Positions 58,618-61,566 of a stretch of 64,000 nucleotides of DNA are shown here, piece after piece. The notes below the pieces were generated by a model. It ran no database searches, was not told where the DNA came from, and saw only the letters and a list, made by a program, of their open reading frames with translations. The stretch spans positions 3,567 through 67,566 of the forward strand of contig JAMPDH010000001.1 of NCBI GenBank assembly GCA_023665725.1, written 5' to 3'. How positions within the stretch are numbered: the stretch's first letter is position 1; the number at the start of each line of letters is the position of its first letter. The stretch comes from Clostridium sp. (GTDB lineage: Bacteria; Bacillota_I; Bacilli_A; RF39; UBA660). The position numbers and the translations under genes are program-made.

Positions 58618-58647
58618 TTGACAAATTTAAAGGGGGGGGGGTATAAT
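58618..58647 (+). promoter_or_regulatory. Promoter TTGACA-N18-TATAAT with a G10 homopolymer in the spacer (candidate phase-variable promoter)
   Basis: ttgaca aatttaaa gggggggggg tataat; a G10 run is exceptional in this AT-rich DNA. Confidence 0.45.
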
Positions 58648-58675
58648 AATAATAGATAGTAGGGAGGTGAGATTT

Positions 58676-59908
58676 ATGAAGAACAAAAGTATATTTAAAT
58701 TAGGAATATTTGTTGCTGCTTTCTTTGTGGGAATATTTAGTGTAAGTGCTAAAACTACTTATACATCATATAAAGCAGGAGATAAAATAAAAGTAAATGT
58801 TAGCAGTTCAAAGCAATTAGATTTTTATGTTATAGAAGATAGTACATCAGAAAATGTAACAGCTATTTATGATGGAGTGTTAGGAGATTGTTTTGGGTTT
58901 GGAGCAATAACTGATTCTTTCGAAGGAAGTATAGCGCAAACAAAATTAAATGAATTAACTTCTGATTGGAATAATCCAACTGAAATAAGATTAATTAAAG
59001 TATCAGAAATAGATTCAAGCATTGAATTATCAAATTTAAAAGATTCAGGTGTAGAAGTAAGAGAACCTAGTTATTATATGGCAACAAAACCTTATTGGAC
59101 CCAAGACGTTATAAAAGATGGTGCTGCCTTACTTCCTATAGATGTTACAAGTTGGGTAACTTATTTTAGTATAGAAGCTGTAGCTGATTCTAATGACGGA
59201 ACTGGTATACAGTCAGCCATTAGACCCGTTATAACAGTTTCCAAAGATTATGTTGTTGGAGGTAGCAAAATTAGTGAAGAAGATAAATTATGGAATAATT
59301 TTGTATCAAAATATAAAACTACTGATTTAGTAAAAATGTTATCAGAAGGTGAAGACACCACTATAAATATAACATCAACAGATGACACTTTAAAAATCGA
59401 GTTTACTAATGGAGCAGATACTACAACTACTAATTTTACTTATTCCAATGGAATAGTTGCATATACACCACCTATAAATGCAACTGATAATAATTTAATT
59501 ATGGATAATATGTGGGTAACAAATTGTATTTATGCAATTGCTGATTTAAAAGGATACGATATTGAAAAATTAATTACTTGGTTAGGTGAAAATGAAAATC
59601 CAAATCTTGCTACTCATGGGATTGAAATTAAGACAGAAAAGAATACAATTCATTTAGAAGATGTATCAGATGTAAATATTAATACAGGTTCAATTACATT
59701 AACTACCGGTAAAATATTATCTTTTAAATTAGATATTAAAAATGGATTGAAAATAACTAATACTGAAGAAAAAAAAGATACAGTTGTAAAAAACCCTGAA
59801 ACAGGAGATAAAAGTAGTATAATTGTTTTTGCATCTATTGCCACACTACTTATTGGAACTGTTGCTTATATTAAATTAAAAAAATATAGTAAATTTCCAC
59901 AAGCATAG
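58676..59908 (+). CDS. Sortase-anchored surface protein (NPETG cell-wall sorting signal)
   Basis: signal peptide; C-terminal NPETGD plus hydrophobic segment plus KLKKYSK tail (class B sortase-type signal); AGGGAGGTG SD before the ATG. Confidence 0.6.
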   Translation: MKNKSIFKLGIFVAAFFVGIFSVSAKTTYTSYKAGDKIKVNVSSSKQLDFYVIEDSTSENVTAIYDGVLGDCFGFGAITDSFEGSIAQTKLNELTSDWNNPTEIRLIKVSEIDSSIELSNLKDSGVEVREPSYYMATKPYWTQDVIKDGAALLPIDVTSWVTYFSIEAVADSNDGTGIQSAIRPVITVSKDYVVGGSKISEEDKLWNNFVSKYKTTDLVKMLSEGEDTTINITSTDDTLKIEFTNGADTTTTNFTYSNGIVAYTPPINATDNNLIMDNMWVTNCIYAIADLKGYDIEKLITWLGENENPNLATHGIEIKTEKNTIHLEDVSDVNINTGSITLTTGKILSFKLDIKNGLKITNTEEKKDTVVKNPETGDKSSIIVFASIATLLIGTVAYIKLKKYSKFPQA

Positions 59909-59964
59909 ATTTTAAGACTTCGTTTGTGAAGCCTTTTTTTCGACTAGTATATGGAGGCAAATAT

Positions 59965-61566
59965 ATGAATGAGGTTTTAATTTTGATAAAAAACAATACT
60001 ATTATATTTTCAACATATACGAAAACAATAGAAAAACAAAATTTAAATAACACTAATATTATTAACAAAAAAAATTTAAAATTTTCTGAAGAATATATTA
60101 TCGGGAATATAGAATTAGTTTCTTCATTTTTCAATTTAGTTATTTTAAAATCAAATATAAATAGTGCTGTAATTAAAAATATAGAAATAGCAGAAACTAT
60201 TTTAACTTTATTGAAATATCTTCCAAAAATAACTAAGGTAGTTTTTACAGAAGATAAAGAATTAAATTATACATTATCATATTTATTGTTAGAAAATATC
60301 AATCTTATTAGTATTGAATGTTATAATTTACCAGAAATAATGTTTTACAAATTTCCTGAAAATATTGTACAAACAAGATGTGAGATACTATTTATAAGTG
60401 ATTTTATGTTATATAATAATATTAATACATATTCTAAGTTATGTAATAAAGATAAAATTATTATAGATAGTTATTTAACTAGATATGATATTGATGATAT
60501 AATTTATTTCTTCAAAAAAAACACTAATTTAAAAAAAATAACAATAAAAGGTTATAAAAGAAATAACTTATTATCTTTTTTAAATATGTTACAAAGAAAC
60601 AATCATAAAAATGTAACAATAATAATTTGCGAAGATTTTAATACAACAAATCAAATAATCTCAGATATTCCTTTATTTACTAGATTAAATAAAAAGTATA
60701 AAGTTAATATAAAAGTTAAATACTCAAAAGAATACAAAGAAAAAAATGGTATGAAAGAATTAAATATTATTTTAGTAAGAAATATTATTTTAATTATTAT
60801 TATATTAGTTATAGTTATAGTATGTTTATTTAATATAAAAGAAACAAAGGATAATCAAAATATAAATGTTAATTTATCAATAATAGAATCTGCTATTGAA
60901 GAAGTTAAAGATTTGCCGCAAATAGATACTTTTAACGTAGAAACAAATGAGCAAGGTTATGAAGAACATAATTCATATAATAGTCCTTATTATACGAACT
61001 ATGAATCAACATATAATAAGTTATTAGAACTAAATAGTGATACAATAGGATGGTTACAAGTTAAAAATACAAAAATTAATTATCCAGTTGTACAAGCAGA
61101 TAATAACGATTATTATTTAAATCATGCTTTTGACAAAACAAAAAATGGAGCAGGTTGGGTATTTGTTGATTACAGAAATAATATGGATACTATAAGCAAA
61201 AATACAATAATATATGCTCACAACATAAAAAAGAATAATTTAATGTTTGGCTCATTAAAAAATGTTTTGGACGATAATTGGAATTCTAATTCTGATAATT
61301 TAAAAATCAATTTTAATATAAAAGGTACTACATATTATTGGCAAATATTTTCTATATATACAATAGATGTAACAAGCGATTACTTAGTAACAGATTTTAA
61401 AAATAATAGTTCATTTAAACAATATATTGAAAAAATTGTTAAACGAAGTATAAAAGATTTTAATGTTAAAATTGGAGAAGAAGATAAAATTTTAACACTA
61501 TCAACTTGTTATAATGACTTAAATTATAGATTGGTAGTGCATGCAAAAATGATAGGAGAAAATTAA
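59965..61566 (+). CDS. Class B sortase with an unusual about 280-aa N-terminal leucine-rich-repeat-like cytoplasmic domain
   Basis: C-terminal domain has SrtB-like motifs (GWLQVKNTKINYPVVQ, IYAHN, LTLSTCY...R); one TM before it; GGAGG SD before the ATG at 59965. Confidence 0.6.
   Translation: MNEVLILIKNNTIIFSTYTKTIEKQNLNNTNIINKKNLKFSEEYIIGNIELVSSFFNLVILKSNINSAVIKNIEIAETILTLLKYLPKITKVVFTEDKELNYTLSYLLLENINLISIECYNLPEIMFYKFPENIVQTRCEILFISDFMLYNNINTYSKLCNKDKIIIDSYLTRYDIDDIIYFFKKNTNLKKITIKGYKRNNLLSFLNMLQRNNHKNVTIIICEDFNTTNQIISDIPLFTRLNKKYKVNIKVKYSKEYKEKNGMKELNIILVRNIILIIIILVIVIVCLFNIKETKDNQNINVNLSIIESAIEEVKDLPQIDTFNVETNEQGYEEHNSYNSPYYTNYESTYNKLLELNSDTIGWLQVKNTKINYPVVQADNNDYYLNHAFDKTKNGAGWVFVDYRNNMDTISKNTIIYAHNIKKNNLMFGSLKNVLDDNWNSNSDNLKINFNIKGTTYYWQIFSIYTIDVTSDYLVTDFKNNSSFKQYIEKIVKRSIKDFNVKIGEEDKILTLSTCYNDLNYRLVVHAKMIGEN

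What the first reader, a model, noticed from the sequence alone, without database searches (positions are those of the whole stretch)
58618..61566. G10 homopolymer inside the promoter spacer of a sortase-B operon: candidate slipped-strand phase-variation switch
The promoter TTGACA aatttaaa GGGGGGGGGG TATAAT has an 18-nt spacer. Gain or loss of one G by slipped-strand mispairing would move the spacing to 19 or to the optimal 17. A G10 run in a very AT-rich genome is highly unusual and lies exactly where spacer-length phase variation operates in Neisseria and Haemophilus surface-protein promoters. The downstream operon encodes a surface protein with an NPETG sorting signal (58676-59908), its dedicated class B sortase (59965-61566) and a zinc-ribbon membrane protein. 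This is a plausible immune- or phage-evasion target.
Basis: partly seen in the sequence, partly recalled or inferred. Interest (0 to 1): 0.6.

Follow-up and report, generated by a model that had tools for sequence, protein, structure and literature searches.

The report
Poly-G promoter switch on sortase operon
A run of ten Gs sits between the two halves of a perfect promoter in front of a cell-surface protein and its sortase in an uncultured gut bacterium, and because a sister genome differs only by one G here, it is probably a slippage-driven on/dim/off switch of a well-known kind in an organism group where it had not been described.

Summary
TTGACA (58618-58623), 8 nt, G10 (58632-58641) and TATAAT (58642-47) form the only 12/12 consensus promoter in 7.4 kb. 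The tract is the only G/C run longer than 5 in 64 kb of 25% GC DNA.

It heads an operon-like set: an NPETG-anchored surface protein, a class B sortase and a zinc-ribbon membrane protein.

- **Length variation here.** A second NCBI MAG of the same strain is identical over 30.7 kb compared, except that this tract is G9. That gives a 17-nt spacer instead of 18. Fourteen A/T runs of 8-11 nt do not differ.
- **Same layout in relatives.** Other uncultured gut 'Bacilli' MAGs carry -35, exactly 8 nt, G10-12, TATAAT in front of a paralogous gene family. G10 versus G11 occurs between near-identical contigs.
- **Not ancestral.** Orthologous sortase operons in closer relatives have ordinary promoters without poly-G.

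The best reading is a slipped-strand, spacer-length phase-variable promoter, working like Neisseria porA, Treponema tp0126 and Mycoplasma vlp. Switching rate and length-dependent activity are inferred, not shown. It is a new member of a known kind, of moderate interest.

The parts
58425..58458 (+). Terminator-like hairpin followed by a U-run, after the upstream 528-aa gene
   Evidence: RNA fold of 58420-58560, z = -3.7. It is part of the left direct repeat.
58483..58527 (+). Second terminator-like hairpin (16-bp stem) plus UUUUU, insulating the operon from upstream transcription
58618..58623 (+). -35 hexamer TTGACA
58624..58631 (+). Fixed 8-nt part of the spacer (AATTTAAA)
   Evidence: Every poly-G promoter found in relatives also has exactly 8 non-G nt here.
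58632..58641 (+). G10 homopolymer, the proposed slippage-prone element. It is G9 in sister MAG GCA_023666545.1.
58642..58647 (+). -10 hexamer TATAAT. The transcription start is inferred about 7 nt downstream, near 58654-58656.
   Evidence: The start site is inferred, not mapped.
58662..58667 (+). Ribosome-binding site GGGAGG, 8 nt before the ATG
58676..59908 (+). Surface protein of 410 aa: signal peptide, C-type-lectin-like N-terminal domain, conserved C-terminal domain, NPETG sorting signal, membrane anchor and KLKK tail
59965..61566 (+). Class B sortase of 533 aa. It has a roughly 290-aa N-terminal extension without a family match, then a membrane helix; the sortase HMMs match from about residue 304 (TIGR03064) or 364 (Pfam) to about 529. 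Contains TLSTC and a conserved His and Arg.
61568..62398 (+). Zinc-ribbon membrane protein of 276 aa. Its start lies 1 nt after the sortase stop. A gene of about 272 aa occupies the same position after the sortase gene in relatives.
62470..62889 (+). Small lipoprotein of 139 aa, the last gene inside the repeat-bounded cassette. Whether it is co-transcribed is uncertain.
58417..58480 (+). Left copy of a direct repeat of about 64 nt that brackets the 4.47-kb cassette
62887..62975 (+). Right copy of the direct repeat, carrying a 22-nt A/T insertion

Best explanation
This is a sigma-A/sigma-70-type promoter whose spacer length is set by a G homopolymer that abuts the -10 box.

Slipped-strand mispairing during replication adds or removes a G. 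That changes the -35/-10 distance and the rotational phasing of the two hexamers. G9 gives 17 nt, predicted strongest. G10 gives 18 nt, the state in this window, predicted reduced. G11-12 or G8 and below are predicted weak or off.

This stochastically and reversibly grades transcription of an operon. The operon encodes a cell-wall-anchored, lectin-like surface protein, its dedicated class B sortase and a zinc-ribbon membrane protein. A clonal population would therefore contain cells with different amounts of this surface antigen or receptor.

- **Shown:** the anatomy; the extreme improbability of the tract; one-G polymorphism between otherwise identical genomes; recurrence of the same architecture with variable n in relatives.
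- **Inferred:** the transcription start; co-transcription of the genes; dependence of activity on tract length; high-frequency reversible switching; the selective agent (host immunity or phage).
For: - **Promoter anatomy.** A perfect 12/12 promoter with an 18-nt spacer containing G10.
- **Improbability.** It is the only G/C run longer than 5 nt in 64 kb at 25% GC, with an expectation of 1.6e-4.
- **Own promoter needed.** Two hairpin-plus-U-run terminators lie just upstream.
- **One-G polymorphism.** Sister MAG GCA_023666545.1 is identical over 8,326 + 22,367 nt except G9 versus G10. All 14 A/T runs of 8-11 nt in the compared stretch are unchanged.
- **Two separate MAGs.** Two NCBI protein accessions exist for each of the surface protein and the sortase.
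- **Recurrence in relatives.** Across ten promoter copies in related uncultured gut MAGs and contigs, the layout is always TTGNNA + exactly 8 nt + G10/11/12 + TATAAT. All precede paralogous genes, and every G tract of 8 or more in those loci is in this context.
- **Variation in relatives.** At one such locus, contigs from different samples differ by the tract (G10 vs G11) and by 0-1 other base in 1.8-2.0 kb.
- **Product class.** The product is a sortase-anchored surface protein whose exposed part diverges strongly between relatives, while the sortase stays 66-76% identical.
- **Experimental precedent.** Poly-G between -35 and -10 with optimum activity at 17 nt is shown for T. pallidum tp0126 and N. 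meningitidis porA (PMC7864442).
Against: - **Thin sampling.** Only two assemblies of this strain exist. Both are short-read metagenome bins, and long G runs are error-prone, so G9/G10 could be consensus noise.
- **Possibly one population.** Zero SNPs in 30.7 kb means the two MAGs may derive from the same or linked samples.
- **No direct data.** There are no reads, no reporter data and no mapped transcription start.
- **Mild predicted effect.** Spacers of 17 and 18 nt are both usually functional. The two observed states may therefore differ only modestly.
- **Not ancestral.** Orthologous srtB operons in closer relatives lack poly-G, so the feature is young at this locus.
- **Weak contig evidence.** Some variable-length contigs in relatives end inside the repeated module, where assemblies are least reliable.
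- **Possible bypass.** A 10/12 promoter-like site inside the 3' end of the surface gene (59796-59823) could express the sortase independently.
Confidence: 0.7

Rival explanations
1. The promoter is fixed and there is no switch. The G run is a static spacer, and the G9/G10 and G10/G11 differences are homopolymer errors of short-read sequencing or assembly.
For: Both MAGs are short-read metagenome bins with no other difference in 30.7 kb, so they may share reads or a source. Several Logan contigs of relatives end in or next to the tract.
Against: - Without selection, a G10 in 25% GC DNA should decay by substitution. Yet it is uninterrupted here and in about ten independent copies in relatives.
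- A/T runs of 8-11 nt show no length differences.
- The length differences lie in the interior of contigs longer than 100 kb from different assemblers.
- The tract always sits precisely between the -35 and the -10.
Confidence: 0.15
2. The G tract is a protein-binding or structural element, for example an operator for a regulator or a rigid G/C block that affects promoter melting. Its length matters little, and regulation is classical rather than stochastic.
For: The sequence just downstream of the -10 (RATWATAGATA) and the 8-nt block are partly shared between the window and the relatives' modules (9/13 matches, empirical p about 0.02). This could reflect a shared binding site. The T. pallidum tpr poly-G promoters also involve a CRP-like regulator (PMC7864442).
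Against: No regulator gene is adjacent. The tract length does vary (9-12) between close relatives, which a specific binding site would not tolerate well. No inverted repeat or known motif was found, and there is no Rfam match.
Confidence: 0.1
3. The poly-G is an artefact of two-colour Illumina chemistry or a scar left by the insertion of the cassette.
For: Two-colour chemistry produces spurious G runs (general knowledge). The cassette is bounded by direct repeats of about 64 nt.
Against: - Artefactual G runs occur at read and contig ends. This tract is flanked on both sides by unique sequence in contigs longer than 100 kb.
- It is present in two MAGs, and its architecture recurs in independent studies and assemblers.
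- The tract lies about 150 nt inside the cassette, not at its junction.
Confidence: 0.03

Closest known systems
Neisseria meningitidis porA promoter (poly-G between -35 and -10); also opc (poly-C)
   Same: A G homopolymer inside the spacer of a sigma-70-type promoter. One-base slippage changes the spacing around the 17-nt optimum and grades expression of a surface protein (as summarised in PMC7864442).
   Different: porA belongs to a Gram-negative pathogen and encodes an outer-membrane porin. Here the host is a low-GC Gram-positive-type gut bacterium, the target is a sortase operon, and the tract abuts the -10 with a fixed 8-nt block after the -35. There is no experimental proof here.
Treponema pallidum tp0126 and tpr gene poly-G promoters
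   Same: Poly-G of about 8-11 nt in the promoter. For tp0126 the tract lies between the -35 and -10, with optimum activity at 17-nt spacing. Length varies within and between isolates, and several surface-protein genes share the device (PMC7864442).
   Different: T. pallidum is a spirochete with a GC-richer genome. Its tracts were validated by fragment-length analysis and GFP reporters, and its products are outer-membrane proteins.
Mycoplasma hyorhinis vlp genes (poly-A in the promoter)
   Same: A multigene family of surface proteins in which each gene has its own homopolymer-containing promoter that switches independently (PMC10502178). The paralogous gene family with poly-G promoters in the related gut 'Bacilli' MAGs looks like this.
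   Different: The vlp system uses poly-A rather than poly-G, in wall-less bacteria, and drives lipoproteins rather than sortase substrates. In the window only one such promoter is seen in 64 kb.
Bifidobacterium breve sortase-dependent pilus clusters (intragenic G-tract slippage)
   Same: A gut commensal in which a G-tract slips and the target is a sortase-dependent surface structure. It serves as a precedent that such microdiversity is used by non-pathogens (PMC9187656).
   Different: That tract lies inside a coding sequence and acts as a frameshift ON/OFF switch, in a high-GC actinobacterium with a class C pilus sortase. Here the tract is in the promoter spacer, in front of a class B sortase operon.

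Membership tests
Homopolymer (SSR) promoter-spacer phase-variable locus / contingency locus | Mononucleotide tract of about 8 nt or more located between recognisable -35 and -10 hexamers | tested here: met
   TTGACA-8 nt-G10-TATAAT, a 12/12 match.
Homopolymer (SSR) promoter-spacer phase-variable locus / contingency locus | Tract far longer than base composition predicts | tested here: met
   It is the only G/C run longer than 5 nt in 64 kb, with an expectation of 1.6e-4.
Homopolymer (SSR) promoter-spacer phase-variable locus / contingency locus | Tract length differs between closely related genomes whose flanks are identical | tested here: met
   G9 versus G10, with 0 other differences in 30.7 kb. 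G10 versus G11 in relatives. The caveat is that these are short-read metagenome assemblies and n = 2 for this locus.
Homopolymer (SSR) promoter-spacer phase-variable locus / contingency locus | High-frequency, reversible length change within a clonal population | not testable with these tools
   This needs raw reads or cultures.
Homopolymer (SSR) promoter-spacer phase-variable locus / contingency locus | Promoter activity depends on tract length; transcription start lies downstream of the -10 | not testable with these tools
   This needs reporter fusions and 5'-RACE. The prediction rests on the known 17-nt spacer optimum.
Homopolymer (SSR) promoter-spacer phase-variable locus / contingency locus | Controlled gene encodes a surface-exposed or environment-facing product | tested here: met
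   Signal peptide, NPETG sorting signal and an adjacent sortase. The exposed region is hypervariable among relatives.
Class B sortase (TIGR03064 / PF04203) | Score above the curated cutoff of the SrtB equivalog model | tested here: met
   156.7 bits against a cutoff of 153.75. Pfam Sortase E = 1.3e-14. The margin over the cutoff is small.
Class B sortase (TIGR03064 / PF04203) | Catalytic His, the TLxTC cysteine and a downstream Arg | tested here: met
   Read directly from the translation...IIYAHN......LTLSTC......YRLVVHA.
Class B sortase (TIGR03064 / PF04203) | Adjacent substrate with an NPxTx-type sorting signal, a hydrophobic segment and a basic tail | tested here: met
   NPETG + IIVFASIATLLIGTVAYI + KLKK. 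N373, P374, T376 and G377 are nearly invariant or invariant in 46 homologues.
Class B sortase (TIGR03064 / PF04203) | Usual architecture: a short N-terminal membrane anchor followed by the catalytic domain (about 240 aa in total) | tested here: not met
   This protein is 533 aa, with a roughly 290-aa N-terminal domain that has no family match. That domain is conserved in more than 100 homologues of 508-559 aa. It is therefore a fused variant of SrtB.

The most novel reading that the evidence does not exclude
A clade of uncultured, low-GC, walled gut Firmicutes, labelled 'Clostridium sp.' or 'Bacilli bacterium', uses a stereotyped and possibly portable poly-G promoter module (-35, 8 nt, Gn, TATAAT, RATWATAGATA). 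The module would act as a general contingency switch in front of surface-protein genes. It would include a vlp-like multigene family in some lineages and, in this genome, a sortase-B cassette that was inserted between direct repeats of about 64 nt together with the module. That would make SSR-based combinatorial surface variation a feature of commensal spore-formers. To date this has been known mainly from Mycoplasma and Gram-negative pathogens.
Probability: 0.3. Interest if true: 0.65.

Novelty: new member of a known kind. Interest (0 to 1): 0.5.

Why it matters
My literature searches found phase variation in gut Firmicutes described mainly as DNA inversion and methylation. They found no description of a promoter-spacer homopolymer switch in this group.

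If the switch is real, it shows that uncultured commensal spore-formers hedge the display of a sortase-anchored, lectin-like surface protein by simple slippage. Related lineages may run whole gene families this way.

It also has a practical consequence. Such loci can be found in metagenomes by a simple pattern. Their tract-length distributions in reads would report which surface states are selected in different hosts.

Tried and rejected
- **Genome scan with the surface protein**: no confirmed relatives, because the protein evolves too fast.
- **Metagenome scan for the module**: only two hits, and none from the window's own species, so there are no further tract-length samples for this locus.
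- **Viral contig scan**: no hit, so there is no sign of a phage origin.
- **Rfam on 58300-58800**: nothing, so there is no known leader RNA or riboswitch.
- **Taxonomy** through SecA homologues and cluster look-up: the nearest relatives are 85-86% identical but unnamed. The organism therefore stays 'Clostridium sp.' MAG.
- **Homology of the window's promoter to the relatives' module:** only 9/13 downstream matches (p about 0.02). The architecture is shared, but common descent is not established.
- **Poly-G as an ancestral feature of the srtB operon:** rejected. The promoters of orthologous operons (sortase 66-76% identical; the substrate genes about 40-47% identical or too diverged to detect) have no G run.
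- **Alternative -35 giving 17 nt with G10:** TGACAA matches only 2/6, so it was rejected.
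Full report
**Observation.**
The sequence reads cgTTGACAaatttaaaGGGGGGGGGGTATAATaataatagatagtaGGGAGGtgagatttATG. The -35 is at 58618-58623 and the -10 at 58642-58647. The spacer is 18 nt, and its last ten bases (58632-58641) are G.

The window is 25.2% GC. This is its only G or C run longer than 5 nt, against 1.6e-4 expected. It is the only 12/12 consensus promoter in 56600-64000 and one of three TTGACA-N17/18-TATAAT sites in 64 kb.

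Two hairpins followed by U-runs (58425-58458 and 58483-58527) lie just upstream. The genes downstream therefore need their own promoter. No Rfam family matches the region.

**The genes.**
- The first gene (58676-59908, 410 aa) encodes a protein with a signal peptide. It ends ...NPETG, a hydrophobic stretch, then KLKKYSKFPQA. In 46 homologues, N373, P374, T376 and G377 are invariant or nearly so.
- The second gene (59965-61566, 533 aa) passes the class B sortase equivalog TIGR03064 (156.7 bits against a cutoff of 153.75) and Pfam Sortase. It carries the His, TLSTC and Arg residues.
- This sortase is unusual in having a roughly 290-aa N-terminal domain with no family match. That domain is conserved in more than 100 homologues of 508-559 aa, some labelled 'Bacilli bacterium'.
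- The third gene (61568-62398) starts one base after the sortase stop and begins with a CxxC...CxxC zinc ribbon.
- The order surface protein, sortase, protein of about 272 aa is conserved in relatives. This supports an operon.
- An AlphaFold model of the surface protein has a mean pLDDT of 77. It has no Foldseek match in the PDB.

**Tract-length variation at this locus.**
The surface protein and the sortase each occur in exactly two NCBI MAGs, both labelled 'Clostridium sp.'. The retrievable one, GCA_023666545.1 contig JAMPBU010000002.1, has G9 where the window has G10.

Over window 55675-64000 the tract is the only difference. Over 25644-48010 there is none. That is one indel in 30.7 kb, and it is in the tract. 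Fourteen A/T homopolymers of 8-11 nt in the same stretch are identical.

G9 gives the canonical 17-nt spacer. The caveat is that both genomes are short-read metagenome bins and may come from linked samples.

**The same architecture elsewhere.**
A relative carrying a 40%-identical surface protein (P0015, from Hadza gut metagenomes) has two poly-G promoters flanking that gene. One is TTGCCAaatccctaG12TATAAT and the other is TTGCAAaactcctaG10TATAAT.

The second tract is G10 in three contigs and G11 in two, all from different samples. The flanks differ by 0-1 base in 1.8-2.0 kb.

A pattern scan of species-representative genomes found five more copies in two 'uncultured Bacilli' MAGs. A metagenome scan found one more copy, plus a degenerate one.

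In all ten copies the layout is TTGNNA, exactly 8 non-G bases, G10-12, TATAAT. All precede paralogous genes; the complete ORFs found encode 366-561 aa and begin MEEKYMK.KKII.... Every G tract of 8 or more in those loci lies in this context.

Beyond the architecture, the window's promoter resembles these modules only weakly. Nine of 13 bases after the -10 match, for an empirical p of about 0.02. Common descent of the module is therefore possible but not shown.

**What is not conserved.**
Orthologous sortase operons in closer relatives have ordinary promoters, several with an extended -10 (TGgTATAMT), and no G run. In these relatives the sortase is 66-76% identical, and the substrate genes are about 40-47% identical or too diverged to detect.

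The poly-G promoter is therefore a recent feature of this lineage. In those relatives the exposed part of the substrate differs greatly (248, 432 and 503 aa), while the sorting tail ...NP[ED]TG...YIK.KKYSKFPQA is kept. This is the pattern expected of a surface protein under diversifying pressure.

**Genomic setting.**
A direct repeat of about 64 nt brackets the 4.47-kb block that holds the second terminator, the poly-G promoter and four genes. The copies are at 58417-58480 and 62887-62975, and the right copy has a 22-nt insertion. The repeat consists of the first terminator plus TTGACAAAATAAGATATACTATA.

In relatives the operon lies in a different neighbourhood. The block therefore looks like a cassette that was inserted or duplicated into this intergenic region.

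**Mechanism.**
The best explanation is slipped-strand mispairing in the G run. This changes spacer length and so grades promoter strength: G9 strongest, G10 reduced, G11-12 or G8 and below weak.

The same mechanism is established for poly-G in N. meningitidis porA and T. pallidum tp0126, both with an optimum at 17 nt (PMC7864442). It is also established for poly-A in the M. hyorhinis vlp genes (PMC10502178).

G-tract slippage controlling sortase-dependent pili in a gut commensal is known for Bifidobacterium breve. There the tract lies inside a coding sequence (PMC9187656).

Here the anatomy and the polymorphism are shown. The transcription start, length-dependent activity, reversibility and the selective agent are inferred.

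**Rival explanations.**
- **Static spacer with sequencing noise (about 0.15).** The persistence of uninterrupted G10-12 in AT-rich genomes, the stability of A/T runs, and the recurrence across assemblers all argue against it.
- **Regulator-binding or structural element (about 0.1).** The variable tract length argues against it.
- **Chemistry artefact or insertion scar (about 0.03).** The tract is internal to long contigs and lies 150 nt from the cassette edge.

**Novelty and score.**
The mechanism is a known kind. My searches found no description of it in this group of uncultured gut Firmicutes or in front of a sortase B operon. I rate it a new member of a known kind, with interest 0.5.

The most novel reading not excluded is a clade-wide, possibly portable poly-G promoter module that provides vlp-like combinatorial surface variation in walled commensal spore-formers. 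I give that a probability of about 0.3 and an interest of about 0.65 if true.

Noticed in passing
window 58417-58480 and 62887-62975: Direct repeats of about 64 nt (a terminator hairpin plus TTGACAAAATAAGATATACTATA) bracket the 4.47-kb block holding the poly-G promoter and four genes. The right copy has a 22-nt A/T insertion. This suggests cassette insertion or duplication, and relatives carry the operon in a different neighbourhood.
   Followed up: partly
window 59965-60840 (N-terminal 290 aa of the sortase): The class B sortase is fused to a large N-terminal, probably cytoplasmic domain with no Pfam or NCBIfam match, followed by one membrane helix. The fusion is conserved in more than 100 homologues of 508-559 aa from gut metagenomes. 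Its function is unknown.
   Followed up: partly
L014 1117-1148 and 4320-4349; L020-L024, L026: Related uncultured 'Bacilli' gut MAGs have a multigene family, beginning MEEKYMK.KKII.., in which each copy lies behind its own TTGCCAAATCCCTA-G10-12-TATAAT promoter. The arrangement resembles Mycoplasma vlp. Tract length differs between samples (G10/G11).
   Followed up: partly
[not shown]
   Followed up: partly
L035 2435-3946, L036 2648-3946, L042 3203-3949: Substrate proteins next to 66-76% identical sortases differ greatly in length and N-terminal sequence (503, 432 and 248 aa). They keep the C-terminal domain and an almost identical tail, ...YIK.KKYSKFPQA. This is modular, fast-evolving surface display.
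   Followed up: no
window 49587-51179: A cluster of 12 tRNA genes (Val, Thr, Tyr, Gln, Lys, Leu, Ser, Met, Asp, Phe, Arg, Pro) on the + strand.
   Followed up: no
window 53824-56700 (- strand) and 46347-48666: A 958-aa protein with three lamin-tail domains, a chitobiase C-terminal domain and a CotH kinase domain. Homologues of CotZ and YutH lie nearby, which points to a spore-former.
   Followed up: no
window 56782-56791 and 62944-62954: T10 and T11 runs in intergenic regions. Both are identical in the two MAGs, and they served as controls for homopolymer assembly noise.
   Followed up: yes
L025 980-1019: A related promoter reads gggaGGGGGGTATAATgattatagata. Its ten-base G block is interrupted by an A, which may be a decayed or locked version of the switch.
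   Followed up: no
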